DNA of 62,520 bases from a virus (taxonomy: Duplodnaviria; Caudoviricetes): IMG/VR virus record IMGVR_UViG_3300042861_000978, positions 1 through 62,520 of that record; one strand, given 5' to 3'. This document shows, piece after piece, positions 31,031-46,971 of this stretch. The notes under the pieces are model-generated. The model had not been told where the DNA came from and searched no databases. It saw only the letters and a program-made list of their open reading frames with translations. The position numbers and the translations under genes were made by a program. The first letter of the stretch is position 1, and every line of letters starts with the position of its first letter.

Positions 31031-31031
31031 A

Positions 31032-32006
31032 TTATTTGTAAGAGATTTGTGAATACTCTAATTTATAAATTCCTTTATATACTCTATTATTAGTTAAATA
31101 ACATGTTATAGAGTTATAAGGAATATCCATTTCTTTAGAACATAAAATTAATTTATTAAAAAATTTTATTTCTTTTGTAATAATGTTTGTAACTTTTAAA
31201 ATTTTTGTTATCTTTTTTTCTTTTATAATAGGTCTAGGCTTTAGAGAGTATAAAGAATTTAATTTTTTTACCTTGTCAGAAATTTTTATTTTTAATTCTA
31301 TAGTTTTATTTAATTTATCTTTCCATATAAATCCACAAGAAGAGTTTACTTTTTCTTTTACACAATTTCTTATAGATGTAGGATGCACATTAAAAAATTT
31401 TGCAGCAATTACTGCGGATTCCCACTCTTTAATAAAATTACCTTTCATGTCATACTGCAATATTATTTTAGAATTATTTAATATTTGTCCTTTTTGTAAT
31501 TTAATTAAATGTTCTAGTGATGGTTTCTTACCTTTATGTGAATTAGAGATTTTAGTTTTAGTTTCTTCACTATGTATATATCCTTTTCTTGATTCATTTC
31601 TTTTTTGTATTTGAGACTTAGATTGTTTTTTACCAGTCATAGCTTTTCTATGTTTCTCAATTTGTTCTTTAGATTTTATTATACCTGCTGTTCCTTCTCC
31701 ACCATCAGTTAAATTTGATAAAATACCTGTTTTAGTATTTATTCTTCCATAAAGTTTTATAAATTCTATTTCTTTTTCTTTAATAAAATTATAATTATCT
31801 GATTCAAAAAGAATTTCTACCTCATATACAGTTTTATTAACTATTTTATTCCAAATATAAGATTCCTTTCTATTTATTTCATAAGCTCTTCTATATTCTG
31901 ATTTAACACTATTATGTGTTCTAGGTTGTTTAGTACCTATACCAATATAAAAGGGCTCATTCTTATCAAGTCTAATATGTCTATAAAGATAATATTTATT
32001 TTCCAT
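31032..32006 (-). CDS. Free-standing homing endonuclease, GIY-YIG-like with NUMOD3 and NUMOD1 DNA-binding repeats
   Basis: YYLYRH..PFYIGIG..RAY..EIEFI..NLTDGGEG; HSEETKTKISNSHKGK; ILQYDMKGNFIKEWESAVIAAK; very AT- and Lys-rich. Confidence 0.85.
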   Translation of the reverse strand: MENKYYLYRHIRLDKNEPFYIGIGTKQPRTHNSVKSEYRRAYEINRKESYIWNKIVNKTVYEVEILFESDNYNFIKEKEIEFIKLYGRINTKTGILSNLTDGGEGTAGIIKSKEQIEKHRKAMTGKKQSKSQIQKRNESRKGYIHSEETKTKISNSHKGKKPSLEHLIKLQKGQILNNSKIILQYDMKGNFIKEWESAVIAAKFFNVHPTSIRNCVKEKVNSSCGFIWKDKLNKTIELKIKISDKVKKLNSLYSLKPRPIIKEKKITKILKVTNIITKEIKFFNKLILCSKEMDIPYNSITCYLTNNRVYKGIYKLEYSQISYK

Positions 32007-32011
32007 GTTTG

Positions 32012-32878
32012 TTATTTATAAGAAAGCATTGCACTGGCGGTGAGGAATTGGCTCACTAGGTGTGTTGTACAATTGTCTTTTAATATATGTCTTATTTTTA
32101 ATTCTTTAGCTCTTATTGTAGCTTTTTTAAATGAGCGAGAAGAATAATCCATATTCTCTTGGTTAATCACTTTATCTATAGAAAGAGATTCACATGATGT
32201 ATTAAACATAGGAATGTAAGGATTTTTCTGTAATGCCCAGAAAGTATTATACTGATAGAAATTATCTGATTTAGTATATGTGATTGTTTTACTATCTGTA
32301 TTGTATATAGGATATTTATTATATGCTTGTAAGTTATTTTTTGGTTTAGGAACAAGTTCTAATAATCCAGAGCTTTGTTGTCCATTATAAAGAATAGCAT
32401 GTGTAAACCATTTATCATCCACTTCTATTCTTGTGTTATCATTAAATACACCATCAGGAATAGGGAGATATTCATATGCTTTTGTATAGTCTTTTACATT
32501 CTGTAAGATTTCATCTTGGTATTGATATGCAAAAGGGTATTCAATTATGTATGGTTCTATATTTCCATAATAAGAATTATACAATTGAATGTTGGTGAGG
32601 TGTCTCCATAAACAAGCTGTAGAAGATTGTGTGTATGTAGCTTCTTGATATTGATATATACTAATTACTTCTAAAGGAAACATTTTTTTAATCTTACATT
32701 TTCCTGTAGACTCTAAAACTATAAAATTTACATTATCATCTACAGTATAATTTACTCCTTGTATTAAAGATTTTTTAGAAACATTAGTTGCTAATACATC
32801 TCCATATTCTGTAGATATAGTAAATGAGCCAGCAATAGATCCAGCTTTTGTTAATTTTATGGTTGCAACTTTTGGCAT
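32012..32878 (-). CDS. Tail muzzle/stabilisation protein, C-terminal fragment, with N-terminal Ig-like module
   Basis: LWRH..YNSYYG..PYIIEY..FTHAILYNGQQSSG resembles the C-terminal part of crAss-like muzzle proteins; first ~70 aa resemble the N-terminus of 43185-43760. Confidence 0.6.
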   Translation of the reverse strand: MPKVATIKLTKAGSIAGSFTISTEYGDVLATNVSKKSLIQGVNYTVDDNVNFIVLESTGKCKIKKMFPLEVISIYQYQEATYTQSSTACLWRHLTNIQLYNSYYGNIEPYIIEYPFAYQYQDEILQNVKDYTKAYEYLPIPDGVFNDNTRIEVDDKWFTHAILYNGQQSSGLLELVPKPKNNLQAYNKYPIYNTDSKTITYTKSDNFYQYNTFWALQKNPYIPMFNTSCESLSIDKVINQENMDYSSRSFKKATIRAKELKIRHILKDNCTTHLVSQFLTASAMLSYK

Positions 32879-32882
32879 AGTA

Positions 32883-34439
32883 TTAAAGAGTTGTTGTAGT
32901 AGTAGTTGTTGGAGCTATAGTGGTGGTGGTGGTAGTTGTTGAGGAGCTAGTAGTTGTTGTTGTAGTGGGCTCTAGATTATTAGGAACACAACTATTAGGT
33001 TGTGTAGCTGCAACAACTGGTATTCCTATAGTTGCTACTTCTGTAATATCATATGGACTCTCTCTTCTAATGTTATATGTTATATTGTTATCATCTACAA
33101 AGAATATTGCACAATCGCACTCAAACATAGATGTTACAATAGTAGAACCTATATTAATATTTAATTCAAGTGTGGTGGTAGCATAATCATATTGAGATAT
33201 GTATGTATCACCAGATATTAAGTCTTGATTAGCAAATATTAATTTGCCTTCAAAGGTATATAATAAATTTGAAATTATTGTTATATCTGGTATTGAAAGT
33301 ATTAATGTACTAACTCCTATTGGATCTGTTATATCCATCTCTACAATATCAACACTAGTAGGAGCATTTGCATTATCTACACAAATCAATACATCATTAT
33401 TTAAAGCAGTAATTGGTCCTGGTACATACCCCATTGGGAAAGCTATTTCTCTGTTGTATGTAGCAGTAAAAGGATTTAATGTTATATCCCATTGTCTAAA
33501 TTCAGTATTATCTATACTCCATAAAAATTCAGGTGTCATTGCTAAACCATTTGCAGCCATAAAGTTTGGAGTATTTAATATTGATGTTGTATATCCTGAT
33601 AGTGTATCTAATAAGTACATACCATCAGTTGATAGTATTACAACACCACAACACTCAGGAATAAATATTGTAGTAGTAGTTGTAGTAGTAGTTCCACAAT
33701 CACAAGTTAGAATCTCAGTAATTACACCATTTACTACATGGTAGGCAGTACTATTAACTAAACTATTTTCATCATAATACCAACCATCTGCAACTAAAGA
33801 GCAATCTGTTAGATAATCAGTATTATATAATATCTGTCCTACAAATAAAGAAAGTGAAGTGACAGACATAGCAGAAAAACTTGTAAGAGTTTTTTCTACT
33901 CGAGATTGTATAACAGAAAATGATTCACATAATAACTCAAATGATGTAGAAGTGTTTACAGGAAGTTCTCCTGTTATTTCATATCCACTATATAATGTAT
34001 AAGAAACTAACCAAGAAGGTCTTTGACAAATTGTAGTTGTTGTAGTTGGTGGAACAGTAATTACTCCTGTACCAACTAAATTACAATCTACATCATATGC
34101 TGTTCCAACTAATGTACAATCTGTTGTAAATATAGTGGTAGATGTTGTTGTAGTGCTTGGAGGAATAGGAGCTGCTGTTGTAGTAGTAGTAATAGTTCTA
34201 TCAAGTCTACCAACTAATGCTAAGAAATCAGCCTCTACATCATTACAACAGTTATTTAAACCAGAGTAGAAGAAGTTGTTTTCTCCTATATACCAATTAG
34301 GAATGTAACTATGAAAAGAAGTCCATCTCTTTGTATTCATATTAAAAGATACAGTCCAAGACTTATTACAGAAAAATTCTGGATCTGTTAAACTAATAGG
34401 AGTTCTTGTTACAATTTTTATTTTTCCTTCTTGTTCCAT
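32883..34439 (-). CDS. Tail muzzle middle fragment fused to Thr-linked Cys-rich and beta-propeller-like modules
   Basis: N-terminal FCNKSWTVSF..WTSFHSYIPNWY continues the muzzle sequence; four poly-Thr tracts. Confidence 0.6.
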   Translation of the reverse strand: MEQEGKIKIVTRTPISLTDPEFFCNKSWTVSFNMNTKRWTSFHSYIPNWYIGENNFFYSGLNNCCNDVEADFLALVGRLDRTITTTTTAAPIPPSTTTTSTTIFTTDCTLVGTAYDVDCNLVGTGVITVPPTTTTTICQRPSWLVSYTLYSGYEITGELPVNTSTSFELLCESFSVIQSRVEKTLTSFSAMSVTSLSLFVGQILYNTDYLTDCSLVADGWYYDENSLVNSTAYHVVNGVITEILTCDCGTTTTTTTTIFIPECCGVVILSTDGMYLLDTLSGYTTSILNTPNFMAANGLAMTPEFLWSIDNTEFRQWDITLNPFTATYNREIAFPMGYVPGPITALNNDVLICVDNANAPTSVDIVEMDITDPIGVSTLILSIPDITIISNLLYTFEGKLIFANQDLISGDTYISQYDYATTTLELNINIGSTIVTSMFECDCAIFFVDDNNITYNIRRESPYDITEVATIGIPVVAATQPNSCVPNNLEPTTTTTTSSSTTTTTTTIAPTTTTTTTL

Positions 34440-34441
34440 GA

Positions 34442-37400
34442 TTAATCTTTTATAAGTCTAATTGCAAAACCTCTAGTTTTTTTAGTGGTTGATCCAGGAA
34501 GACCACCTCCAAGTGTGTATGTATAATAAGACCATGCATTTGTACTAGATGATGGTGTAGTTGACCACCAATTACCATAATCTCCTTCCCAATCAAAGCT
34601 ACCTGTTTCATCTCTAGTACCACTAGGAAGAGCTGTAAATCCATATAAATTTGTAGCATATGTATTTGGACTATTCCAATTTGTTAGCCCAACTTCTTTT
34701 AATTTACCTCCAGGATTTGAAGATAAAAATGTTGCTAATGTATCCCACTCTGCTTTACTTGGAATATGATATCCTACTGGAGCAAGTCCTCTAGGATCAG
34801 TAACTGCATACCAGTTATACAGCTTTCCATAGCAATTATCATCTGCATTATTGTAGTAACACCAAGCACCAGTAGTAAGATTGGCCCATTGAGTTGGATC
34901 TGTTACCTGAGGTATTGGTGTTCCATCTCTATAAGTGGATACATCAAGGTTACAAGCTGTCCAAATTTGTGTTCCTATCTCTACTTCTTCTAACGTACAA
35001 CAGTTTGTAGTAGTGGTAGTTGTTGTTGGTGGGCATATAACATCCTCACATAAATCTTCATAAGAAGAGCCTAATATATTATTATCAGCAACAGTATTAG
35101 TACATCCCAAAAATTCATTTATTTGTATTTTAAATCCATTTAAATAATAGTATTTATTTACTAATAAAGGTTCAGAGTTAGTTATAGTTGCTGGTCCAGA
35201 TATTGTACAAGTCTCACAATAAATCCAATCTATTGAATATCCCCAAGATGTACAAACTGTAGTAGAGGTTGTAGTAGTAGAAGAAGTAGATGTTGTTGTT
35301 GTAGCTGCATCAATATAAGTTACTGTTTCTATATAGTATTCATTTTTATCAGCATCATATTTTACATCTGGATCAATAGGAATGTAATCAAGTTTAGTGA
35401 TAATAACTCTATCAAACTTGCTATCATATACACCATGTAGTCCTACACCTGTAAAATTATTATCAGTTGGGACTTCTGGAAAATATCTAAGTATTTCAAA
35501 AGCTAAATGGTCTGTAAAGAATCTATTCATTCCTGAACCAAATGCTGAAAGATCAGCAGCTTGTGTTCCTTCAATAAGAAATACTTGCCCTCTTTTAGCA
35601 TCAACTGTTATTTGTCCTTGAGGAATCTTTAATAAAAATTTATTTTGACTTCCTACATATCCAAGATCAGTTTCTGCAAAATCAATTGGAGGAGCTCCTT
35701 TAAATAAAGAAGGATTACCAAAATATGCTGCTTGTGGATTACTTGTATCTACTGTTAATAGATTATTATATAATAATGATTTGTTTTCAAATCTAGCTAA
35801 TACAGCTTTGTTTTGAATACCATCTAGAGATATTAATCTACCATAGTTTTGAGGAAAATCAAAAAATGACAATGGTTTATACACTAACCAATTATTAATT
35901 CTATTATCTGCATTTTGATTTTGTAGTTCTGAGTATATAGCTCTAAAAGGATAGTTAGTTAAGCAAACATCATCTTTAAAATCATCTGGTAAATGTGTAA
36001 ATGTATTTTCTGTATTTTGTTTTGAAAATGTTGTGTTGTATGTATATGTATTATCATTAGCTATAGAAACATAACTTTCTTGTACCCAATCATCAGGAAT
36101 TCCTGTAGATACATGTGGCCAAAAATCTCCTTCTTTATTATTAAATGCTTGTCTTAAATCTACATTATATGATGTCTCACAGTAAAAATTAGGAATTCCA
36201 TATGCAAACAAATAAAAATATCCATCATAATACGTTCTAAATGTTCCTGGTATACCTGTTACACCTTGTTTTATTTGAGATGGATCATTAGGACAATCAA
36301 AGTTGTGAGCTTTATATGAAATAATATTTAACATAGGAGGCGCACTATTATAATTCTCTAAAATAGATCTTGCAGAATGCCAATACTTTGGGTAAGATAC
36401 ATTACCTAATTCATCATAAAATATATCTGAATCATCAGGGGCATTAACTCTATTATCAATAAAAAAAGGTAATTTAGTTTTAAAAGCAAAGCGTGATATA
36501 AATGTATCCCCTCCAAAAACTGTAGCAATTTCAGGATTGTTTTTAAAATTAATTCTTTGAAAACCTGTGTCAATTGTTTTGTAAGTATATATTTGTCCCC
36601 ATTGATTTGGTATAACATTTTTTAAAGAAGCATAATATGAAACAACTTGAATAGGTTGTTCTTCTGCAGGACTAGCACATCTATCACTTAAAGAAATTGT
36701 AGTTCTAGATTTATCTACAACAATAGGATTTCCTGTAGAGGAACTAATCATATCTGGAACCTGACTAGGAAATTCTAAAGCAGTTACTGGTATTAAGTTA
36801 TCTTTAACTTCTCTATTTTCTATTGTTTTAATAAATACAGAAGACTCTCTTTGGAAATTATTAATGTTTTTATCATCTCCTACATTCTGAACTCCTGGAA
36901 TTAAATATGTTGCTATATCAACTTCTCTTTGTTTTATTCCTAAATTATTATCAATATCAGCTTTATAATTATAATCTGCTATTGAGTTATATGAATAAGC
37001 ATAATTCTTTCTTGTAATACCATTTACATAAATAGTTAAGTATGCTTGATAAGCTGTAAACCTTGCAGTAATATCATTAGGAGCTATATCAAAAGAACTT
37101 TTTAACGCATCCACTTGAGCTTCTTTGGAAAGAAGTCTATATTTAGCATTATTTCTAACTTGTACAAAATGATCACGTCCTTGTCCATATATAACATTTT
37201 CAAGTTTTAAAACATTACCAAGAAAAGGCTGACCAAAAGAAGTTTCAGGAGAGTTAAAAACTTGTCTATATTTTGTTTCTTCATTAGCATTTGCTTTTAA
37301 TGGAGAATATTTTCCACAAGATAATGTTGATCTTCTACCTTTATTTTCACTTGAAGGAAGTTGGTTAAGTGCACAAAGTTCAAATTGATTTACAGAAAAT

Positions 37401-39631
37401 CTAACAGCAGATCCATTATCTCTAAATACTTGAGCATTTAGTGGTACTTTTTTCAACTGCGCTGCGGGATTAAACCCAATGTAAACACGATAGGTAAAAG
37501 TACCAGTATTATCAGATGACCAATCAATAGTACAATTTGCTACATTATATTGATCAAAATTATCATCTGGTATTAGCCTTATTACGTCATATTCAGCTGG
37601 ACCTATACTAGCTCTTCCAGATTTCCATATAGGTCTTGTTAAAGAACAAAATTCATAATTTGTTCCTACTTTCATTTCTTCTTCTATTGGTAAACCAGTA
37701 ATTACATCTGTATATTCAAATATTCCATCTTCTTTAGGAATTACCAACCAAGCTTTTATATCTCCAAACTTATTATTTGTTTCTGTAAGAAAAGGATCTT
37801 CATTTAAATCATTGTAAGGGTAGTTTGGGAAATAGAAAGATTGTTCTTCTCTTTTATATTCTCCTACATTTCTAAGAATACCTTTTGCTACAATAGATTT
37901 ATTTGTTCCTCTATCTCCTCTTAGTATTTTAAATCCTACAATTTCATTTTTTTGTTCTGTTGTAAGAGAAGAAGAATTAATAATATCTGCAACTTGTTTA
38001 ACATCTATTCTTATTCCAAGAGGGAATACAGCTGTAGTCCCCATTTCCATACTATTTATTCCTGAAAATATTTTTTCTTCAAATATTGGACTTACAAGAA
38101 CATCAGGAAACTTATGGTGTCTAATTGGTTTACCAGCTAAGTCTCCCCATATTTCTTCTACACATGGATATAAATCTTCTGACTCCCAATAAGCAAATTT
38201 TCCATACTCATAAGGACCTTTATAAGAATTTTTAGCAACATACCCTGGAGACTTAGAAATAACAGAAGCTGTATTATATATTTTCCAATAAGGACTATAT
38301 CCTACTGTCTTATCAAAATTATAAGATGTAGGGGTTCCAATAAAATCATTATTAGTTGTTGGTACATCTATATAAGATTCATTTGAGTCTTTTTCTCTTC
38401 CAGGTATATGAAACCCATCTGTTTGTCTTCCATTTGTAAGAAGAAAACAAATTTCTAAAGCATAAACTTCATCTCTTAAATATCCTCTTAGATTTGTTGC
38501 GTTTAATTCATCAGAATAGTTTTCTGTAGCAGGTATTCTCCAAGTTTCCCATTGGAGATTTATTTTATTTGCTATTGACTGATAATTAACTTTACTTATA
38601 GTTGTAAGATCACTCCATACTAATATATCTTGTACAGAAGTTACATCATTTGCTATATCATAATAGGGTTGTTTTTCAAATATATCACTTATTGCTAAAC
38701 GTATATTAGTTACATTTTGCCCTGTGTATGTAAGTTTTTCTGTAGGATTATTAATAAAGTATGTTCCTACTAATTCTACGGATGAAATAGCATTAACTGT
38801 TTTAATTACAGCTAGGTTATAATATTGAAACTGTCCTGTAGCATCTAGGTTTGATATTGATAGTATAACAGACTTTCCAACATTATAATCAAAGTTGGGA
38901 GTAGTAAGTTGTGTATCAGCAATAGGTGTTGGGTTAGTAACTGAGTAATATGATGTATATGGATTACCAGCAGCATCTGCATATTGAATAGCAAACTGAA
39001 CAGTTCCTGCTGTTAAGTTTCCTCCACTAACAACATCAACAACATCAATATTAGGAATATTAAAGTTAGGTTGTAACTTAAGTTGATTACAATCTATCTC
39101 ATTTGTAAATTTTAAATTACATTCATCAGAATCTGCAGCTAAAATATAAGGAATAGTTTCAGGATTTAAATCTAAGTATCTTCTAGGGTTTAAACCATCT
39201 GTCCAGTAAATTTCTGTTGTACAATTTGTAATTTTATGTACAACTTTAAGAATAGGGTAATTAATGTCAAAATTTAAACAAGGAGCAGATATAAAAGTGT
39301 GATAGATACAATCATTATTATCCATATAACCAATTTGAGAATCTTTGGTTAAAGGATTTGTAATAAAGAAAATATGTTTATTTTTTTCTTGAATAAAGTG
39401 ACGACCTATAAGAATATAATCTAAAGGAAACTGTAAACAAAATTCATTACCAGGTTCATTTTGGTAATTTACAGAACTCGCATCAAAGTTTTCCATATTA
39501 GCATTAAGAGCATAAGTCAAGGAACCTTTAGGAATCTGATTAACAGATTGATCCATATTAAGGCCTCCTGTACCTGTATTATACTCATTTCTAATATTTC
39601 CTTGAGATTGCTCTTGGGTATTATCTGCCAT
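34442..39631 (-). CDS. Tail muzzle/stabilisation protein (P22 gp10-like), N-terminal major part, ending in a Cys module and a FISUMP (Fib_succ_major) domain
   Basis: GGLNMD..YALNA..EIYWTDGLNPRR..RGYLRDEVY..PIRHHKFPD..GYVGSQ..VDAKRGQVF..GVYDSKFDRVIITK; C-terminal IGTQIWTACNL..YGKLYNWYAV..GNWWS..GFAIRLIKD. Confidence 0.8.
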   Translation of the reverse strand: MADNTQEQSQGNIRNEYNTGTGGLNMDQSVNQIPKGSLTYALNANMENFDASSVNYQNEPGNEFCLQFPLDYILIGRHFIQEKNKHIFFITNPLTKDSQIGYMDNNDCIYHTFISAPCLNFDINYPILKVVHKITNCTTEIYWTDGLNPRRYLDLNPETIPYILAADSDECNLKFTNEIDCNQLKLQPNFNIPNIDVVDVVSGGNLTAGTVQFAIQYADAAGNPYTSYYSVTNPTPIADTQLTTPNFDYNVGKSVILSISNLDATGQFQYYNLAVIKTVNAISSVELVGTYFINNPTEKLTYTGQNVTNIRLAISDIFEKQPYYDIANDVTSVQDILVWSDLTTISKVNYQSIANKINLQWETWRIPATENYSDELNATNLRGYLRDEVYALEICFLLTNGRQTDGFHIPGREKDSNESYIDVPTTNNDFIGTPTSYNFDKTVGYSPYWKIYNTASVISKSPGYVAKNSYKGPYEYGKFAYWESEDLYPCVEEIWGDLAGKPIRHHKFPDVLVSPIFEEKIFSGINSMEMGTTAVFPLGIRIDVKQVADIINSSSLTTEQKNEIVGFKILRGDRGTNKSIVAKGILRNVGEYKREEQSFYFPNYPYNDLNEDPFLTETNNKFGDIKAWLVIPKEDGIFEYTDVITGLPIEEEMKVGTNYEFCSLTRPIWKSGRASIGPAEYDVIRLIPDDNFDQYNVANCTIDWSSDNTGTFTYRVYIGFNPAAQLKKVPLNAQVFRDNGSAVRFSVNQFELCALNQLPSSENKGRRSTLSCGKYSPLKANANEETKYRQVFNSPETSFGQPFLGNVLKLENVIYGQGRDHFVQVRNNAKYRLLSKEAQVDALKSSFDIAPNDITARFTAYQAYLTIYVNGITRKNYAYSYNSIADYNYKADIDNNLGIKQREVDIATYLIPGVQNVGDDKNINNFQRESSVFIKTIENREVKDNLIPVTALEFPSQVPDMISSSTGNPIVVDKSRTTISLSDRCASPAEEQPIQVVSYYASLKNVIPNQWGQIYTYKTIDTGFQRINFKNNPEIATVFGGDTFISRFAFKTKLPFFIDNRVNAPDDSDIFYDELGNVSYPKYWHSARSILENYNSAPPMLNIISYKAHNFDCPNDPSQIKQGVTGIPGTFRTYYDGYFYLFAYGIPNFYCETSYNVDLRQAFNNKEGDFWPHVSTGIPDDWVQESYVSIANDNTYTYNTTFSKQNTENTFTHLPDDFKDDVCLTNYPFRAIYSELQNQNADNRINNWLVYKPLSFFDFPQNYGRLISLDGIQNKAVLARFENKSLLYNNLLTVDTSNPQAAYFGNPSLFKGAPPIDFAETDLGYVGSQNKFLLKIPQGQITVDAKRGQVFLIEGTQAADLSAFGSGMNRFFTDHLAFEILRYFPEVPTDNNFTGVGLHGVYDSKFDRVIITKLDYIPIDPDVKYDADKNEYYIETVTYIDAATTTTSTSSTTTTSTTVCTSWGYSIDWIYCETCTISGPATITNSEPLLVNKYYYLNGFKIQINEFLGCTNTVADNNILGSSYEDLCEDVICPPTTTTTTTNCCTLEEVEIGTQIWTACNLDVSTYRDGTPIPQVTDPTQWANLTTGAWCYYNNADDNCYGKLYNWYAVTDPRGLAPVGYHIPSKAEWDTLATFLSSNPGGKLKEVGLTNWNSPNTYATNLYGFTALPSGTRDETGSFDWEGDYGNWWSTTPSSSTNAWSYYTYTLGGGLPGSTTKKTRGFAIRLIKD

Positions 39632-39636
39632 AATGA

Positions 39637-40602
39637 TTAATTATTACGTCTTCTTCCATAACGAGAGATTCTATTAGGAAGCTCATACATATTAAATTTA
39701 TTTAACTGTTGTTTCATTCTATTCATCTTTGTATATACATCTTGCTTCTTAATTTCCATTTCTGCCATTATATAGGCTTCATCTGACAAAGATTTATAGT
39801 ATTGAAGTTTTTGTTGTAACTGATTAAATGTTTCATCATTAGTTTGATTAGCAAGCATTTCAAAAACTTTATACTTAATAAAGTGTTCTACATACTCTCT
39901 AATACGATAATTATCAGGAACTAATTGGTTACCTATTTCATCATAATCTGTTGCATAAAAAATTAAATGTACCACACCATTTCTAAAGTTTGTAACAAAT
40001 TTATTTCCTCTAATATCAAAAGAATCATAAGCAGAACCATAAGGAACATTACCTGTATTATTATGATATTGTCCATACAAATCTAAATTACTAGTGTAAT
40101 TAACATCACAGTTATGTTTAGTAGATATATTACCTGGTTTAAGTAAATAAGCTTGTCTATATGATCTAGCTTGTTGTGTATTAGTTTTGTATACAGCTTG
40201 TACAATATCTGGCATACATTCTGGACATCCTGTTGTACATCCTGTATTTGTACAAGGAGTCCCATTAAATGTAATAGGAGCTATTTGTATAGTTGTAGAT
40301 CCTGTTTGAGAATAAAATGAATTTGCTGTTTGATATGGTAGCAAAGGAATTTCTGCGCACATCCATGCTTCTCTAACAGCATAAAAGTTATCAGGTAGGC
40401 GAGCTTCAAAATCTTGAATTTCTAATGCTATTTCTGCTATAATATAACTAGACTTTCCTAACTTTTTAAGACACTTATCTAAATATGTTGGAAAAAGTAA
40501 ATCATCTACTGCACCTGTATCAAAATAGCTTTTAAGCTCTTCTTTCACTGTAGAGTAAATTGGTTCAGGACTAATAAAATTGTATTTATAATAAAAGCTC
40601 AT
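39637..40602 (-). CDS. Tail ring/tubular protein (P22 gp4-like)
   Basis: Between the IHF-like and muzzle genes as in crAss-like phages; ARLPDNF..TNFRNG.V.L..Y..DE.GNQLVPDN pattern. Confidence 0.7.
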   Translation of the reverse strand: MSFYYKYNFISPEPIYSTVKEELKSYFDTGAVDDLLFPTYLDKCLKKLGKSSYIIAEIALEIQDFEARLPDNFYAVREAWMCAEIPLLPYQTANSFYSQTGSTTIQIAPITFNGTPCTNTGCTTGCPECMPDIVQAVYKTNTQQARSYRQAYLLKPGNISTKHNCDVNYTSNLDLYGQYHNNTGNVPYGSAYDSFDIRGNKFVTNFRNGVVHLIFYATDYDEIGNQLVPDNYRIREYVEHFIKYKVFEMLANQTNDETFNQLQQKLQYYKSLSDEAYIMAEMEIKKQDVYTKMNRMKQQLNKFNMYELPNRISRYGRRRNN

Positions 40603-40607
40603 TGTTT

Positions 40608-41090
40608 TTATTTTTTAATGTTCCACTCACAATAAATATGTTGATATTTATCATCAGTATTAATATAGTGTGCTAGTAGTCTAGATGTCACTCTTGAAGG
40701 CTTAAAATACCAAAGATTAGAAAACCTAAATCTTGCAGGGTCCTTAAACCAATGCCAACCAAAAAAGTATCCTTCTGTATGATAATTAAAGTTGTATATA
40801 ACTTTTCCTTTTTCTTTTGTTTTTTTCCAATCTATAGGAAGATTGATAAATTCTTTTGTACCATTACTTTTTATTTTTCTTCTTTTCTTTTTGTTTATAG
40901 AAAAGTATCCAAATCCACATGGTAGTTGAATTTTTTCTCCTGTTTCTAAAATATAGTCTCTAAAAGCTTCGTTAAAAGAATATACTATTATTCTCCAATC
41001 ATCATAAGAAAGATTTATTTCAGGATGAGCTTTACAAAAAGCTATGTAATTTTCTTTACTTGAAGATCTAAACTCAACTTTTACTCTCAT
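40608..41090 (-). CDS. HU/IHF-like DNA-binding protein
   Basis: ILETGEKIQLPCGFGYFSINKKK resembles the HU/IHF signature; basic; crAss-like gene order. Confidence 0.7.
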   Translation of the reverse strand: MRVKVEFRSSSKENYIAFCKAHPEINLSYDDWRIIVYSFNEAFRDYILETGEKIQLPCGFGYFSINKKKRRKIKSNGTKEFINLPIDWKKTKEKGKVIYNFNYHTEGYFFGWHWFKDPARFRFSNLWYFKPSRVTSRLLAHYINTDDKYQHIYCEWNIKK

Positions 41091-41095
41091 ATATA

Positions 41096-41824
41096 TTAAC
41101 TAGTAGGCTTAGTGTTAGGAGCTTGACCATCTATTCCATCTGCTGTTATATCAGTTTTTAATGAGAAATATGTAGATAGAAGTTTTTGAGATGTTAATTG
41201 TAACACTTGCTGTTCTAAATATCCAGGAAGAGGAAACTTTTTATCTAAAGGATTAATACATATATCTTCTTCTGTATAACTTCTTCCACAATTACAATCC
41301 TCTGAATACATAATGCTGTTAGGGACATCTTCCTCAAAAAATGCAACAAATCTTACTGCTTCTAAATCTGGATTACTTATATATAAATATCCATTAGAAA
41401 TCCAGAAATAAGCTTCTTTTTTAATTATGGGAAGTTTTAAAAGATTTACATATCTATTTACAGATATTTCTTTAAACTTTGTAGCCTTACCCCCTAGCGC
41501 ATTAATAGAGTACACTCCTTGAATAACATATTGATAGTTACCTTCTGATATCCTTGGAAGTTTTTCTTTGCTCCTAGCCACTGTACATTCTTCTACATAA
41601 TCACAACATTCAGATAAAGGAACTTCTTTCATTTCTAAACAAGGAATTGTTGTAAATAATGTATCAGTTGCCCAGAGCTTTCTAAGATTTGTTTCTCTCT
41701 TAATTAATAAAAGAGAATTGTTTCTTATTTCACTTAGTATGGCTCTATCTGTTATGAGTGAATCAGTTGAAAGCAACTTATGAGTTGATCTAACATCTGA
41801 TACTAATTTTCTTCCTGTGCTCAT
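41096..41824 (-). CDS. Tail ring protein
   Basis: Gene order; YFWISNGYLYI..FEE..FPLPGYL pattern and size typical of crAss-like ring proteins. Confidence 0.6.
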   Translation of the reverse strand: MSTGRKLVSDVRSTHKLLSTDSLITDRAILSEIRNNSLLLIKRETNLRKLWATDTLFTTIPCLEMKEVPLSECCDYVEECTVARSKEKLPRISEGNYQYVIQGVYSINALGGKATKFKEISVNRYVNLLKLPIIKKEAYFWISNGYLYISNPDLEAVRFVAFFEEDVPNSIMYSEDCNCGRSYTEEDICINPLDKKFPLPGYLEQQVLQLTSQKLLSTYFSLKTDITADGIDGQAPNTKPTS

Positions 41825-43184: not shown

Positions 43185-43760
43185 TTATACTGTTGTTGTG
43201 GTTGTTGTTGTAGTAGGGCAATTACTTATACTCATAATTACACCACCGACAATTTCTGTTATTTCATTAGTATCTAAATCTGTTATGTAAAAACCATCTT
43301 CTAATAATGTACAATCTGTTGAAAATATTCCTAAATAAACAGTTTCTCCTAATGTAAATGATGCCAATTGACCAGCTTTTCCTTGCATAGTTCCTGAAGG
43401 AATATTTGTATCAAATTCATTAGAAGCTGTACATGCATCAAGAAAAGAACTTGTAAATATAAACTCTGGACCTCCTGATGGTGTATATTTCCAATTAAAA
43501 GATTTATTAATTAACCCTCCAGGTCTTTCACAAGGTGGTTCTGTTAATATTATATCAACATAATTAATACAATACTGAGAAGTAGATTTTACTCTTACAA
43601 CTGATGTAAAGTCAGGAACCAATGTAGATGTATAACCAGAAGTTAAATCAATCTTAGCAACACCCACTTCAAAAGGTGTAACAAACCCATCTAAATCTGA
43701 ATATAGATTAAAAGGACCACTGTCTGATCCTGCTGTTGTTAATGTTATAAATACTGTCAT
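43185..43760 (-). CDS. Virion surface protein: Ig-like module, Cys module, poly-Thr tail
   Basis: Both modules recur in 32012-32878 and 32883-34439; ends TTTTTTTTV. Confidence 0.6.
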   Translation of the reverse strand: MTVFITLTTAGSDSGPFNLYSDLDGFVTPFEVGVAKIDLTSGYTSTLVPDFTSVVRVKSTSQYCINYVDIILTEPPCERPGGLINKSFNWKYTPSGGPEFIFTSSFLDACTASNEFDTNIPSGTMQGKAGQLASFTLGETVYLGIFSTDCTLLEDGFYITDLDTNEITEIVGGVIMSISNCPTTTTTTTTV

Positions 43761-43772
43761 TTTATTTTTGGT

Positions 43773-44375
43773 TTAGCAATTAATTTCTTCTTTTTCCTCC
43801 CCATTTACTATTACAAGTGTATCAATGTCTATACATGGTGTATAGGTTGTATTCCCTAATGTTAAAAGCCCTCCTACTGGATCTCCTAAACAAGTTATTG
43901 CACTCCAACTTCCTCCATCGATTGTTAATGCTTGTAATCCATATATTTTACAAATTAATGGTTTTACTGTAGTAGTAGTTGTAGTTGTACATAAAATTTC
44001 TTCACAAGTTGCAAATCCTTCATCAGGTATTGAAGCATCACTTTCTCCTACATCACATCCTAAATATTCATAAGGAGATATTACAAACTCTCCTAGTTGA
44101 TAAAAATTAAACAGAGTTAAAGGATTTGAGTTATAAAGAAAACTGCTCTCTACAAATTCACAAAGTTCACAAGTTAGAACATCATAAGCATATTGCCATC
44201 TATTACATAATGCAGTGGTTGTAGTGGTTGTAGTGCTGCTTGTAGAAGTTGTTGATGTGCTGGTGCTAGTCGTTGTAGTACTACTACTAGTTGTACTGGT
44301 ACTAGTAGTACATATAAAAGGATTAACTTCTACACACACTCCATTACAATCACACTTTACAAATCCTGTAAACAT
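43773..44375 (-). CDS. Thr-rich, Cys-rich virion surface protein
   Basis: Long Thr/Ser tract, CELC..CEEILC module shared with two other proteins, second Thr tract, small Cys domain. Confidence 0.6.
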   Translation of the reverse strand: MFTGFVKCDCNGVCVEVNPFICTTSTSTTSSSTTTTSTSTSTTSTSSTTTTTTTALCNRWQYAYDVLTCELCEFVESSFLYNSNPLTLFNFYQLGEFVISPYEYLGCDVGESDASIPDEGFATCEEILCTTTTTTTVKPLICKIYGLQALTIDGGSWSAITCLGDPVGGLLTLGNTTYTPCIDIDTLVIVNGEEKEEINC

Positions 44376-44376
44376 A

Positions 44377-45534
44377 TTATGCTGGTATATACATTATGTA
44401 ATAGCAACCAATTGTTGGTTGGTTGTTTTGGTGAGCTTGACTTTGTCCTGTATCTTCTAAAGATACAGTTATATTTGATTCTGATAAAGAAGATAGTCCA
44501 ACAGTTGCTAAAGCTCCAGAAGTAGTAGATTGTAATCTATATGTCTCACTATTACCTCTGTCTTGATACCAAACAATAGGATTAGTAGTAGAAGGTGTTA
44601 TAAAAGGTCCTCCGCCTAAAGCTGTTGTAAAATGAGAATGTTTATTATCATCAACATTTACAATATGTGTATGAATAGGAATTTCAGGAATTCCTAATGT
44701 TACAAAGTTTGTTCCAAAACTAGCACCTAGGGTATAATTAGGATTAAGAGTATTAGATGAAGGATTAACATCTGGAGGAAGTGTATTTCCTCCCATACCA
44801 TTAGTAACACCAGCTAAAACTCTTCCTCTTAAATCAGGTGTACCATTTAAACCATTACAAAAATATATATTTTCATATTCAGATCCTACAATACCAGCTC
44901 CTGTATTAGTAAAGTTATTTAAAAGCGCAGTTGTAGGAAACCAAGGATAAGCTACATAAGGAACCATTTTTGTGTATTGCTTTGTAGTTGGACCAACAAG
45001 ACCTTCATCTTCTAATATATTAACAACTAAATTACTTAATTCATCTTCTAATACATAATTATTTAAACTTAAAATAGTTGTTGTTAATAATTGATCTGTT
45101 TGACACAGCTGATCTATTACTGCTTGAAGAACATTATGTGTATTAGAAAATGTTGTTTCCTCTACTGTTAAACATCCTTCATTATAAGGGCCTTCTAATA
45201 TTTCTAAATTATTAGTAACATTATTAACTAAATCTTGTAAATCACAAGCTGAATCAATAAGAGCTTGTAATAAATCATTTAATGTTGGACCAGCACATCC
45301 TACACAAGGAGGAATATTATTTGCTACTATTGAGCAAACTCCTTCTAAGTCTACAATAGGTTTAATACCTGTTCCATTTAATGTACTAATAAGAAATTGA
45401 GCTAGAGTTTGTTCTACAAATTCTAGTGTATCACCATTTTGAATTCCTAGTGCAGGAATATCTGCTCCTGTATATTTTACACATTTATCTGATGTAATTT
45501 CAGAGCATCCATTAAAACAATTTGTACAAGACAT
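44377..45534 (-). CDS. Tail fibre protein with tail-collar-like C-terminal domain
   Basis: FCNGLNGTPDLRGRV..GTNFVTLGIPEIPIHTH..AHQNNQP..YIMYI; Cys-rich N-terminus and coiled coil. Confidence 0.75.
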   Translation of the reverse strand: MSCTNCFNGCSEITSDKCVKYTGADIPALGIQNGDTLEFVEQTLAQFLISTLNGTGIKPIVDLEGVCSIVANNIPPCVGCAGPTLNDLLQALIDSACDLQDLVNNVTNNLEILEGPYNEGCLTVEETTFSNTHNVLQAVIDQLCQTDQLLTTTILSLNNYVLEDELSNLVVNILEDEGLVGPTTKQYTKMVPYVAYPWFPTTALLNNFTNTGAGIVGSEYENIYFCNGLNGTPDLRGRVLAGVTNGMGGNTLPPDVNPSSNTLNPNYTLGASFGTNFVTLGIPEIPIHTHIVNVDDNKHSHFTTALGGGPFITPSTTNPIVWYQDRGNSETYRLQSTTSGALATVGLSSLSESNITVSLEDTGQSQAHQNNQPTIGCYYIMYIPA

Positions 45535-45549
45535 AATATATATTTTATT

Positions 45550-46971
45550 TTATAAGTTTTTTACTAATCTTACTGAGCGACCATATTTTTTACCAAAAGA
45601 AAAAACTGATGCATTATTATTATTTTGAAATAAAATAAGGTAAAAAGCATCAGAAGCACCACTAGTTGTAACACTCCACCAATTACCACCTTCTCCTAAA
45701 TACCAAAAAGTACCAAAAGTATCTGGAGTACGGTTACCACCAGGTAAAGCTGTAAAGCCACTACTATTGGTTGCACCTGAACTCATATTCCAATGAGTAG
45801 TTCCTGCTTCTTTTAAAGCTTGTCCTGCTAATCCTCCTCCACCTAAAGAACTAATTAAAGTATTAAACTCTGTTTGTGTAGGAACATGATATCCTGCAGG
45901 TGCTAATTGTTTTCTCAATGCAGGGTTGGCAGCTGATGCTGCGTCATAAATTCCTGCCACAGCATACCAATTGTATAATTTGCCATAAACACATTCATTT
46001 GCTGGGTCATTGTCATAATAACACCATGCTCCTGTGGTAAGATTTTGCCAAGCTGCAGGGTTACTAACTTGAGGAATTGGAGTACCATCAGAGTATGTAG
46101 TTACATTAAGATTGCAAGCTGTCCAGGTTTGTGCACCAATAGTAACATCTGTTAGCTGACAACAAGTTGTGGTTGTTGTGGTTGTTGAGCTTGTAGTAGT
46201 AGTTGTTGTTGGAGCTATTGTTGTTGTAGTAGTGGTTGGTGTAACAGTTGTAGTTGTTGTAGTTGTTGGTGGTGTTGTAGTTGTAGTAGTTGTTGTAGGA
46301 ACACATAATACTGCTTCACAAGTAGATTGTTCTGTTTCTGTATTTATATTAAAAGAAGTAGGACTACTTGATGTACCCATAAATTCTAATATTTGAAAAA
46401 CAAATCCAGAAAAATCATCATAATAAAACTGCCCAACATTTAAAGGTCCAACATTTGCTCTTATATATGATCCACTAGTTTCACAAGTCTCACAAACAAG
46501 TTGTTCTATTCTATAAAGGTAACTAATTACAGTTGTAGTAGTAGTGGTGGTACTAGAACTTGTAGTTGTAGTAGGAGTTATAGTGGTGGTTGTAGTTGTT
46601 GTACTGCTGGTAGAAGTACTAGTTGTAGTACTAGTAGAAGAAGTAGTTGTACTAGTAGATGTTGTAGTTGTTCTTATTGGTGGAGCCTCAAAACAATTCT
46701 TCACACAATTTGCTGTTAGTTTTACAACTTGTGAAGCAATTTGATTAACAGAATATTTTGATACATAATCAGGGTTGATTTGTTTATAAAATAAAATTCT
46801 TCTGTATTGTATTAAATCAAAAATTGCTGATCCAGAAATAGGTTTATTCAGCATAAACACTATATTATTATACATAGTGCTTGAAAGCTGTGCTAATTTA
46901 CAATCTATAGAAGCTATTAATGAATTAATATCTCCACACTTTGTACAGTTAGTTTGTTTAGGATAGAGCAT
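45550..46971 (-). CDS. Tail hub-like protein carrying Thr tracts, a Cys module and a C-terminal FISUMP domain
   Basis: Helical N-terminal ~95 aa, two long poly-Thr tracts, IGAQTWTACNL..YGKLYNWYAV..GNWWS..GRSVRLVK. Confidence 0.7.
   Translation of the reverse strand: MLYPKQTNCTKCGDINSLIASIDCKLAQLSSTMYNNIVFMLNKPISGSAIFDLIQYRRILFYKQINPDYVSKYSVNQIASQVVKLTANCVKNCFEAPPIRTTTTSTSTTTSSTSTTTSTSTSSTTTTTTTITPTTTTSSSTTTTTTTVISYLYRIEQLVCETCETSGSYIRANVGPLNVGQFYYDDFSGFVFQILEFMGTSSSPTSFNINTETEQSTCEAVLCVPTTTTTTTTPPTTTTTTTVTPTTTTTTIAPTTTTTTSSTTTTTTTCCQLTDVTIGAQTWTACNLNVTTYSDGTPIPQVSNPAAWQNLTTGAWCYYDNDPANECVYGKLYNWYAVAGIYDAASAANPALRKQLAPAGYHVPTQTEFNTLISSLGGGGLAGQALKEAGTTHWNMSSGATNSSGFTALPGGNRTPDTFGTFWYLGEGGNWWSVTTSGASDAFYLILFQNNNNASVFSFGKKYGRSVRLVKNL
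46165..46672 (-). repeat. Two long (ACN)n Thr-codon tracts flanking a Cys module; similar tracts near 32890-32970, 33670-33693, 34030-34195, 35004-35030, 35255-35305, 43188-43215, 43965-43990, 44213-44310, 47745-47800
   Basis: GTT/GTA/GTG trinucleotide runs on the plus strand encoding poly-Thr on the minus strand. Confidence 0.9.

What the first reader, a model, noticed from the sequence alone, without database searches (positions are those of the whole stretch)
32012..39631. Essential tail muzzle gene apparently split into three ORFs by inserted cassettes carrying their own stop and start
Seen: muzzle-like sequence in the 1729-aa ORF stops after GVYDSKFDRVIITKLDY..YYIE and turns into Thr-A-Thr-FISUMP-stop. 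It resumes at the start of the next ORF (ISLTDPEFFCNKSWTVSF..SFHSYIPNWY..FFYSG), then breaks again into Thr modules. It resumes a third time after Ig-like module C (CLWRH..YNSYYG..PYIIEY). The gaps are 2 and 4 nt, so the pieces are out of frame and simple readthrough cannot join them. From knowledge: these motifs are normally contiguous in one crAss-like muzzle polypeptide. Inference: a propeller protein assembled from three chains, with the new termini displaying adhesin modules at the tail tip.
Basis: partly seen in the sequence, partly recalled or inferred. Interest (0 to 1): 0.8.

Follow-up and report, generated by a model that had tools for sequence, protein, structure and literature searches.

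The report
Phage tail muzzle gene split three ways
In this freshwater crAss-like phage the gene for the tail-end "muzzle" protein, one long chain in its relatives, is cut at two surface turns into three neighbouring genes that probably reassemble into one unit and carry extra, swappable binding modules on the new chain ends.

Summary
Three adjacent minus-strand ORFs (1729, 518 and 288 aa) are separated by TAA-tc-ATG and TAA-tact-ATG. They align collinearly and end to end with single-chain relatives. One 1701-aa relative covers all three pieces at 61-74% identity and matches Pfam crAss_MUZ.

The split is not an artefact. The 288-aa third piece exists as 2,734 protein clusters. Of 154 related viral loci, 151 carry the B|C break and 33 also carry the A|B break. 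Independent metagenome contigs bridge both junctions without indels there. All core pieces are under purifying selection (dN/dS 0.03-0.28).

Both breaks fall at predicted beta-hairpin turns in the C-terminal propeller, whose best structural match is the phicrAss001 muzzle. A three-chain model places the 66-aa middle piece between the other two (ipSAE 0.66, best control 0.00).

Trees place one origin of the B|C break with at least two later re-fusions, and at least five changes at A|B. The new C-termini carry poly-Thr-linked variable modules (FISUMP among them). The third piece always starts with a small beta-sandwich domain that also heads free-standing small genes in the fibre region.

First readers of this scan noted the same split in at least seven other genomes; no follow-up was listed.

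The parts
35327..39631 (-). Piece A core: P0001 residues 1-1435. Contains the ring-joining and N-terminal propeller region, the large middle domain and the first C-terminal blades.
   Evidence: 61% identity over residues 6-1435 to single-chain P0004. An hhalign of the A alignment (residues 22-411) against phicrAss001 gp44 (11-396) gave probability 94.7, E 6e-8. PHROG 37948 and 15100 'virion structural protein'.
34442..35326 (-). Piece A extension: P0001 residues 1436-1729 plus TAA. Order: poly-Thr linker, Cys-rich module, poly-Thr linker, Fib_succ_major domain (34448-34984).
   Evidence: Pfam PF09603 at residues 1550-1728, 127.8 bits. Absent from single-chain and AB-fused relatives. A 42%-identical paralogue lies in ORF 45550..46971.
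34437..34444 (-). A|B junction: TAA (34442-34444), tc, ATG (34437-34439).
   Evidence: The same junction occurs in L004, L006 and L016. Contigs from runs X2 and X8 bridge it with no gaps.
34251..34439 (-). Piece B core: P0002 residues 1-63. An acidic leader of about 10 aa, then about 53 aa of propeller strands.
   Evidence: 65-74% identity to residues 1439-1498 of P0004 and to the matching stretch of other single-chain forms. Weak PF25731 match at model positions 1183-1220 of 1224, E 0.026, below threshold. In the model it contacts A and C.
32883..34250 (-). Piece B extension: P0002 residues 64-518 plus TAA. Cys-x-Leu-x-Gly-Thr-Ala motifs and three modules joined by poly-Thr linkers, ending in a poly-Thr tail.
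   Evidence: No Pfam family. Hypervariable in relatives, 23-805 aa in 112 loci. One module resembles ORF 43185..43760.
32876..32885 (-). B|C junction: TAA (32883-32885), tact, ATG (32876-32878).
   Evidence: Across 112 split loci there are 110 TAA stops and 111 ATG starts, and 98 of the gaps are between -1 and 26 nt.
32627..32878 (-). Piece C head: P0003 residues 1-84, a small all-beta domain (Ig-like as a lead only).
   Evidence: AlphaFold2 block pLDDT 87-96 over residues 1-80, with seven strands. Foldseek gave only weak Ig, CnaB and pilin-type matches, E 0.1 or worse. It aligned in every split locus used for the alignments, and 115 of 124 loci hold at least one copy. The same domain heads ORF 43185..43760.
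32012..32626 (-). Piece C core: P0003 residues 85-288 plus stop, the last propeller blades and the C-terminus.
   Evidence: 73.5% identity to P0004 residues 1498-1701. hhalign of residues 83-169 against gp44 1231-1304, E 0.006. dN/dS 0.08-0.18.
31032..32006 (-). Free-standing homing-endonuclease-like gene directly downstream. Not part of the split.
   Evidence: PHROG 314. NUMOD3 at 28.2 bits and NUMOD1 at 23.4 bits. Found in only 13 of 124 related loci, 5 of them at this position.
39637..41824 (-). Upstream synteny: tail ring protein 1 (39637..40602), a weak HU-like ORF (40608..41090), tail ring protein 2 (41096..41824).
   Evidence: PF24228 at 39.7 bits and PF25702 at 73.8 bits, both above their cut-off of 27. 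PF00216 at 18 bits, below its cut-off. The order matches phicrAss001 gp40-gp44.
43185..46971 (-). Fibre and adhesin gene cluster that shares modules with the inserts: 43185..43760 (same head domain plus a B-type module), 43773..44375 (module A), 45550..46971 (module A plus FISUMP).
   Evidence: tblastn, hmmsearch, Pfam.

Best explanation
This is a true, inherited gene fission of the crAss-type tail muzzle protein (the gp44 family, a relative of podophage nozzles).

Two beta-hairpin turns in the C-terminal blades of its propeller have taken up foreign coding DNA that brings a stop codon and a new ATG. The three genes are translated separately. The very short stop-to-start gaps suggest termination-reinitiation coupling.

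The three chains then complement each other to rebuild one muzzle subunit. The 53-aa core of piece B pairs strand to strand with the last strands of A and the first core strands of C.

Because each break creates a free C-terminus, A and B can carry any number of poly-Thr-linked modules without having to return to the fold. These modules are shared with the phage's own fibre genes and turn over quickly, so they most likely act as accessory cell-surface binding modules arranged six-fold around the muzzle.

What is shown: fission, collinearity, conservation, purifying selection, module sharing. What is predicted: the fold and the three-chain packing. What is inferred: coupling, binding function and host-range role.
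For: - Collinear, abutting alignment to single-chain relatives.
- Family identity. PF25731 crAss_MUZ scores 109-138 bits in the single-chain relatives P0004, P0006, P0007 and P0012. hhalign to gp44 gave probability 94.7. The Foldseek top hit for a single-chain relative's last 813 aa is 7qok_A, the phicrAss001 muzzle, with E 1.1e-13 and probability 1.00, followed by podophage tail chains. Ring 2, HU-like, ring 1, muzzle synteny matches.
- The split is real and old. There are 2,734 clusters of the stand-alone third piece. B|C is split in 78 of 78, 34 of 36 and 39 of 40 complete loci in three scans; A|B is split in 32, 0 and 1 of them. Independent contigs bridge both junctions without indels there.
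- Purifying selection: dN/dS is 0.14-0.28 for A, 0.03-0.15 for B and 0.08-0.18 for the C core.
- Separate translation. ATG starts C in 111 of 112 loci and B in 32 of 32. All three relative frames occur at both junctions.
- Break positions. In the AlphaFold2 model the breaks fall between strands 556-559 and 562-564, and between 606-610 and 614-618. Block pLDDT is 85-96 from about residue 450 to 640 and mostly above 85 beyond.
- Assembly. ESMFold2 ipSAE was 0.66, 0.66 and 0.64 against a best control of 0.00. That mark was reached by 58 of 80 solved complexes and 2 of 110 mismatched pairs. The runs share at least 77% of contacts and partner pLDDT is at least 69. B contacts A at 525-546 and 557-566 and C at 86-95, 101-111 and 229-234.
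- Modules. FISUMP on A, paralogues in fibre-region ORFs, and extension lengths of 23-805 aa falling into 40 clusters.
Against: - No protein-level or RNA data. No RNA run was listed.
- The three-chain model may pass partly from memory, because the solved single-chain phicrAss001 muzzle is of the same fold. My own alignments also lie outside the tool's calibration.
- pLDDT of the non-partner chains was only 54-59.
- P0001 itself gets no PF25731 hit.
- The folds come from a relative about 60-65% identical, not from the window's own chains.
- Only FISUMP has a family name. 7 of 10 sampled extensions, and the window's own B extension, match no Pfam family. The biochemical role of FISUMP is not established by any search here.
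- About half of the B chains (57 of 112), and the short A tails, end in a bare poly-Thr tract with nothing attached. The display idea does not explain this.
Confidence: 0.8

Rival explanations
1. The three ORFs are joined during translation by stop readthrough, frameshifting or ribosome hopping, so the virion carries one long chain that includes all inserts.
For: The gaps are tiny (2 and 4 nt). In the minimal relative L088 the stop is in frame and the ATG of C follows two codons after it. Many B chains end in a poly-Thr linker just before the head domain of C, as if the two were once continuous.
Against: Relative frames at B|C are +1 in 52, 0 in 32 and +2 in 28 of 112 loci. At A|B they are 17, 12 and 3 of 32. 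Gaps run from -14 to 34 nt, and whole extra genes lie in 14 B|C gaps and 1 A|B gap. C keeps ATG in 111 of 112 loci and B in 32 of 32. TAA, the stop in 110 of 112, is to my recollection not a codon reassigned in crAss-like phages. No structured RNA family was found.
Confidence: 0.03
2. The breaks are assembly or sequencing errors, or the gene is decaying into a pseudogene.
For: The window is a metagenome-derived record with an estimated completeness of 54%. Poly-Thr coding repeats do cause ambiguous read joins.
Against: The same architecture appears in 151 of 154 related loci from many data sets and in 2,734 protein clusters. Contigs from runs of three other studies bridge the junctions. dN/dS is well below 1 in every core piece.
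Confidence: 0.02
3. Only piece A (or AB) builds the muzzle. B and/or C have become independent fibre or adaptor proteins that no longer complete the propeller.
For: C begins with the same head domain as free-standing small fibre-region genes. The head domain evolves faster, with dN/dS 0.22-0.82. Assembly rests on a model only.
Against: The B and C cores remain as conserved as in single-chain forms, with invariant residues spread along both alignments. Single-chain forms nested inside the split clade (P0004/P0005, P0006) show that the pieces still fit together in one fold. The model places B between A and C with low error.
Confidence: 0.1

Closest known systems
phicrAss001 muzzle protein gp44 (PDB 7QOK/7QOL; Pfam PF25731 crAss_MUZ)
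   Same: Same family by profile, by fold of a close relative and by gene order after the ring proteins. gp44 itself carries domains inserted between and within propeller blades, and the family varies in length through insertions (passages of PMC10172136).
   Different: gp44 is a single 1371-aa chain whose insertions are all in frame. Here the chain is cut twice in the C-terminal blades, at about gp44 residues 1180-1185 and 1228-1232 by my extrapolation from the hhalign ranges. The inserts end in stop codons.
Split nozzle of Pseudomonas podophage A1002 (gp39 nozzle-rope plus gp42 nozzle-base)
   Same: Cryo-EM shows one canonical nozzle function divided between two proteins that complete each other's platform and beta-propeller domains by strand complementation (passages of PMC13730344). 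This is a structural precedent for a propeller built from more than one chain at a podophage tail.
   Different: Two pieces there, three here. As numbered in the paper's passages, the A1002 genes (gp39, gp42) are not next to each other. Here the pieces are adjacent and strictly collinear with single-chain relatives, the state is polymorphic within one clade and has reverted, and the breaks carry variable modules.
In-frame domain insertion at the same A|B hairpin in single-chain relatives (Flavobacterium phage FpV4 gp29, Cellulophaga phage phi4:1 gp042, metagenomic P0037, P0091, P0028)
   Same: The same site holds about 260-330 extra residues. The hairpin is therefore an insertion hot spot across the family. 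phi4:1 gp042 is annotated as a virion protein found by MS/MS.
   Different: Those inserts return to the fold in one chain. None of the 122 single-chain forms has more than 9 extra residues at the B|C site.
Modular exchange of phage tail-fibre and receptor-binding domains (general knowledge, recalled)
   Same: Variable distal modules are shared between genes of one phage and turn over faster than the structural core.
   Different: Here the modules are grafted into the body of a conserved gatekeeper protein by cutting its chain, not onto the end of a fibre.

Membership tests
Crassvirus muzzle protein (PF25731 / phicrAss001 gp44) | Sequence match to the curated family model | tested here: inconclusive
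   P0001 gave no PF25731 hit, either whole at E up to 0.1 or as its first 500 aa at E up to 10. The B core hits model positions 1183-1220 at E 0.026, below threshold. Single-chain relatives score well: P0004 (61% identical to P0001) at 108.8 bits, and P0006, P0007 and P0012 at 110-138 bits, against a cut-off of 27. hhalign of the alignment headed by P0001 against gp44 gave probability 94.7, E 6e-8.
Crassvirus muzzle protein (PF25731 / phicrAss001 gp44) | Muzzle or nozzle fold with a C-terminal beta-propeller | tested here: met
   The AlphaFold2 model of the last 813 aa of single-chain relative L087 has mean pLDDT 75.5. Foldseek ranks 7qok_A and 7qol_P first (E about 1e-13, 555-558 columns), then podophage tail chains and WD40-type propellers. 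This was tested on a relative, not on the window's own three chains.
Crassvirus muzzle protein (PF25731 / phicrAss001 gp44) | Gene position directly after the tail ring protein genes | tested here: met
   CrAss_Ring_2, a weak HU-like ORF and CrAss_Ring_1 lie immediately upstream. This matches gp40, gp42, gp43 and gp44 of phicrAss001.
Crassvirus muzzle protein (PF25731 / phicrAss001 gp44) | One polypeptide per subunit of a hexameric tail-end assembly | tested here: not met
   Three ORFs with their own stops and starts. This is the variant feature. Hexamer formation and virion location cannot be tested with these tools.
Fib_succ_major (PF09603) | Full-length match above the curated cut-off | tested here: met
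   P0001 residues 1550-1728 match model positions 1-187 of 187 at 127.8 bits, cut-off 33.9.
Multi-chain (split) podophage nozzle, as in A1002 | Strand complementation of one propeller by separate chains, seen in a structure | not testable with these tools
   Only a prediction is available: ipSAE 0.66 against a best control of 0.00.
Free-standing NUMOD-type homing endonuclease (downstream ORF) | NUMOD1 and NUMOD3 DNA-binding motifs, and sporadic distribution | tested here: met
   Both motifs score above their cut-offs. The gene is present in 13 of 124 loci. A GIY-YIG-type N-terminus is my own reading of the sequence and is not a tool result.

The most novel reading that the evidence does not exclude
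The two hairpins may work as sockets of a cassette system. Under this reading the muzzle gene is in effect interrupted by a piece of a fibre-gene array.

- Each array unit starts with ATG plus a conserved beta-sandwich head domain of about 84 aa, continues through poly-Thr linkers into variable binding modules, and ends with TAA.
- Recombination within the repetitive Thr-coding linkers moves units in and out. A socket can then hold nothing (bare poly-Thr tails), modules only, or one whole extra gene.
- The insert can also be excised again, leaving short scars and restoring a single chain.
- The head domain would be a common docking adaptor. Free-standing head-bearing adhesins would plug onto the same muzzle position that piece C occupies covalently.

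If true, this would be a natural, reversible split-protein display platform on a conserved phage gatekeeper.
Probability: 0.3. Interest if true: 0.75.

Novelty: new variant of a known kind. Interest (0 to 1): 0.62.

Why it matters
The muzzle is described as the conserved gatekeeper at the tail end of crassviruses (passages of PMC10172136). This lineage appears to build it from two or three chains, to switch between those states, and even to re-fuse them.

That points to two exact positions in the propeller where the chain can be cut and loaded with foreign domains. Cryo-EM or proteomics of a cultured relative could test this directly, and it would be useful for engineering display or host-range modules on such phages.

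The lineage is abundant in fresh water. There are 2,734 clusters of the third piece, and the listed runs that hold the stretch come from 15 studies, most labelled freshwater or lake water. The arrangement is therefore a widespread natural design and not a curiosity of one contig.

It also gives a second case, reached by a different route, beside the two-protein nozzle of phage A1002.

Tried and rejected
- Sequence search of the three proteins against PDB chains: nothing at E up to 0.01-1, apart from one chance-level row.
- Pfam on P0001's own N-terminus: no crAss_MUZ hit.
- Pfam on the B extension, on 7 of 10 sampled extensions from relatives, and on the in-frame A|B inserts of P0037, P0091 and P0028: no family.
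- Foldseek with the P0003 model: no match at E 0.001 or better. 'Ig-like' therefore stays a lead.
- ESM Atlas on P0002 residues 250-492: best score 0.87 (DUF4394/DUF6923-type clusters), below the 0.9 level. A lead only.
- Rfam on 31000-40000: two chance-level rows, no intron or recoding element.
- Homing endonuclease as the cause of the split: rejected. It is in 13 of 124 loci while the split is in nearly all.
- RNA evidence: no RNA holder was listed.
- Raw reads of run X21 landed only on the poly-Thr coding repeats and gave ambiguous joins, so they say nothing about the junctions.
- Read laying prints only the best-supported differences (40 of 225 substitution rows). The absence of a listed change at the stop codons is therefore not proof of identity.
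- AU tests of the tree were not run. The statement on re-fusions rests on SH-aLRT-starred branches, a FastTree topology and junction scars.
- Novelty in print rests on only two literature searches. Supplementary files were not opened and may hold relevant gene tables. Papers were read as passages only.

Full report
**What is there.** Three adjacent minus-strand ORFs occupy 32012-39631: P0001 (1729 aa), P0002 (518 aa) and P0003 (288 aa). The junctions read TAA-tc-ATG and TAA-tact-ATG. These gaps resemble those between the other genes of this operon, which are 1-6 nt by the ORF coordinates. The window is a 62.5-kb viral record, about 30% G+C, with nearly all genes on one strand. It carries terminase, portal and major capsid genes, then tail ring protein 2, a weak HU-like ORF, tail ring protein 1, the three ORFs, and then very large ORFs of up to 4313 aa. 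The ring 2, HU-like, ring 1, muzzle order matches phicrAss001 gp40-gp44.

**Collinearity.** Local BLAST against the single 1654-aa protein of Leptolyngbya phage Lbo-JY46 places P0001 (to residue 1435), P0002 (3-61) and P0003 (79-265) one after another with no gap or overlap beyond a few residues. The same order holds for FpV4 gp29, phi4:1 gp042 and the crAssE-Sib protein whose record note says 'Muzzle protein'. A search for longer relatives of P0003 found 119 proteins of 615-1924 aa. All three segments were found, in order, in 122 of the 123 single-chain proteins examined. The closest, P0004 (1701 aa), matches P0001 6-1435 at 61%, P0002 11-70 at 65% and P0003 85-288 at 73.5%, end to end.

**Family.** P0004, P0006, P0007 and P0012 match Pfam PF25731 'Crassvirus muzzle protein' at 109-138 bits against a cut-off of 27. 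P0001 itself does not, which I cannot explain beyond heuristic filtering. An hhalign of the alignment headed by P0001 against phicrAss001 gp44 gives probability 94.7 (residues 22-411 against 11-396). The B and C alignments give weak but collinear matches, to gp44 1194-1217 and 1231-1304. An AlphaFold2 model of the last 813 aa of a natural single-chain relative (L087; mean pLDDT 75.5, block pLDDT 85-96 from about residue 450 to 640 and mostly above 85 beyond) has the phicrAss001 muzzle as its best PDB match (7qok_A, E 1.1e-13, probability 1.00). Next come tail chains of other podophages and WD40-type propellers. According to passages of PMC10172136, gp44 is a hexameric gatekeeper with a ring-joining domain, a seven-bladed propeller like the T7 nozzle, two Ig-like domains inserted between and within blades, and a distal crass domain.

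**Where the breaks lie.** Lining the junction peptides up with the model puts the A|B break between strands 556-559 and 562-564. It puts the B|C break between strands 606-610 and 614-618. Both are tight hairpin turns in the C-terminal blades. Extrapolating from the hhalign ranges gives roughly gp44 residues 1180-1185 and 1228-1232; this is my estimate and not a residue-level alignment.

**Reality and spread of the split.**
- The stand-alone third piece occurs as 2,734 clusters at 90% identity, most of the 120 listed being exactly 288 aa.
- Scan with P0003: 80 loci, 2 incomplete, 78 of 78 split at B|C, 32 of them also split at A|B.
- Scan with P0012: 44 loci, 36 complete, giving 34 AB|C and 2 unsplit.
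- Scan with P0006: 79 newly numbered loci examined (one further returned row repeated L097), 63 complete. Of these, 40 were not already held, giving 38 AB|C, 1 A|B|C and 1 unsplit.
- Together that is 154 loci: 118 AB|C, 33 A|B|C and 3 unsplit. No locus is split at A|B only.
- These scans were seeded with split-type or neighbouring queries, so the proportions are biased towards split forms.
- Logan contigs from runs of three other studies, labelled freshwater (X2, X8) and 'fungus metagenome' (X4), bridge both junctions with no indel reported there. One example is a contig from run X8 that covers 33985-34857 with 3 mismatches and 0 gaps.
- Nei-Gojobori dN/dS against nine relatives is 0.14-0.28 for the A core, 0.03-0.15 for the B core, 0.08-0.18 for the C core and 0.22-0.82 for the head of C.

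**Separate translation.** At B|C, across 112 loci, the stop is TAA in 110 and the start is ATG in 111. The gap is -1 to 26 nt in 98 loci, and the relative frame is +1 in 52, 0 in 32 and +2 in 28. At A|B, across 32 loci, all starts are ATG, 30 stops are TAA, and the frames split 17, 12 and 3. Every B begins with an acidic leader of about 10 aa. A conserved recoding signal is therefore implausible, and Rfam finds nothing.

**Assembly.** A three-chain prediction used P0001 875-1440, P0002 1-66 as partner and P0003, each with an 80-row alignment. It gave ipSAE 0.66, 0.66 and 0.64 against 0.00 for the three controls. That mark was reached by 58 of 80 solved complexes and 2 of 110 mismatched pairs. 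The runs agree in at least 77% of contacts and partner pLDDT is at least 69. B residues 23-32 pair with chain-1 residues 534-544, which are P0001 1408-1418. B also touches C at 86-95, 101-111 and 229-234. The solved single-chain muzzle has the same fold, so part of this pass may reflect likeness rather than proof of binding. The other chains' pLDDT was 54-59.

**History.** Two trees were built from the joined core alignments: a FastTree of 197 rows and an IQ-TREE quick tree of 98 rows. Both place the single-chain forms basally and the split forms in one clade (support 94), sister to a single-chain group. Three single-chain proteins sit inside that clade: P0006, and P0004 with P0005. The B|C state needs 3 changes, all forced by starred branches. 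The A|B state needs 5 changes among 32 split rows. P0006, confirmed as a continuous ORF on locus L131, keeps short motifs of both insert flanks around a 16-aa linker where basal forms have 5 aa. That is what a secondary deletion of the insert would leave. The minimal split relative L088 has only 23 extra residues, a stop, two further codons and the ATG of C, in the same frame.

**Contents of the sockets.**
- B extensions run from 23 to 805 aa and A extensions from 2 to 685 aa. Those of at least 100 aa fall into 40 clusters.
- FISUMP recurs on A, and DUF5122 propeller repeats occur on one B extension. 7 of 10 sampled extensions match no Pfam family.
- The window's A cassette has a 42%-identical paralogue in ORF 45550..46971. 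Its Cys-rich module recurs in 43773..44375, and a B module recurs in 43185..43760.
- The first 84 aa of C fold as a confident seven-strand beta domain. An HMM built from it finds the same domain at the N-terminus of ORF 43185..43760 (E 1.4e-6).
- In the related loci, 154 of 168 hits to that HMM are N-terminal. They include small genes near the upstream end of the loci, where the window has its fibre-region genes.
- In 13 of the 14 loci with a long B|C gap, the hit is a complete extra gene lying between B and C.
- One locus (L017) has a 415-aa extra gene between A and B.
- 57 of 112 B chains, and the short A tails, end in a bare poly-Thr tract.
- In single-chain relatives the A|B hairpin sometimes holds 59-326 aa in frame, while the B|C site never holds more than 9 aa.

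**Reading.** The muzzle propeller has two permissive hairpins. At A|B, both in-frame loops and chain breaks occur. At B|C, only chain breaks occur, and always with the head domain on the downstream piece. Cutting the chain removes the need for an insert to return to the fold, which fits the long multi-module arms seen only in the split forms. Sharing of the head domain and modules with fibre-region genes, together with Thr-coding repeats at every module border, suggests recombination with the phage's own fibre genes as the source. This last step is inference.

**Comparison and novelty.** The closest structural precedent is the two-protein nozzle of phage A1002 (passages of PMC13730344). Two full-text searches turned up no description of a split crAss-type muzzle. 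Among their listings, only the A1002 paper and a review that uses 'split' in another sense combine the terms. First readers of this scan noted the same B|C split in at least seven other genomes, and no follow-up was listed for those notes. I class this as a new variant of a known kind.

Noticed in passing
window 31032-32006 (-): A free-standing homing-endonuclease-like gene (NUMOD1 and NUMOD3) lies directly after the third muzzle piece. It is present in only 13 of 124 related loci, 5 of them at this position.
   Followed up: partly
window 43185-43760 (-): A small fibre-region ORF starts with the same beta-sandwich head domain as muzzle piece C (hmmsearch E 1.4e-6) and continues into a module like one in the B extension.
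   Followed up: partly
L091-L095, L104, L105, L108, L114, L120, L121, L127, L129 (between pieces B and C): Thirteen loci carry one complete extra gene inside the B|C break (249-1498 nt between the stop of B and the start of C). Each begins with the same head domain. Where the gap sequence was printed, Thr linkers and modules follow.
   Followed up: partly
L017 6984-8231: A 415-aa extra gene sits inside the A|B break. It contains a Gly-Asp-Ser-Gly stretch that reminds me of serine proteases. This is my own reading; no family search was run.
   Followed up: no
window 38132-39631 (-): P0001's N-terminal 500 aa gets no PF25731 hit even at E 10, although relatives 53-61% identical over the whole length (P0004, P0007, P0012) score 109-132 bits.
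   Followed up: partly
L029 about 6740-6810; L034 about 7170: L029 has pieces A and B overlapping by 14 nt after a TGA, possibly a frameshift or a very recent break. L034 has an extra in-frame stop inside piece A.
   Followed up: no
window 32900-35300, Thr-coding repeats: Raw reads of run X21 map only to the ACT/ACA-type Thr-linker repeats and give many 'skip' and 'go back' joins between linkers. These are repeat ambiguity or population-level module shuffling, and cannot be told apart here.
   Followed up: no
L002 (Leptolyngbya phage Lbo-JY46, record positions 82844-87808): A cultured cyanophage carries an unsplit, insert-free homologue of this crAss-type muzzle, annotated only as a hypothetical protein. 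It is the best-scoring match to P0001 in the phage collection (33% identity).
   Followed up: no
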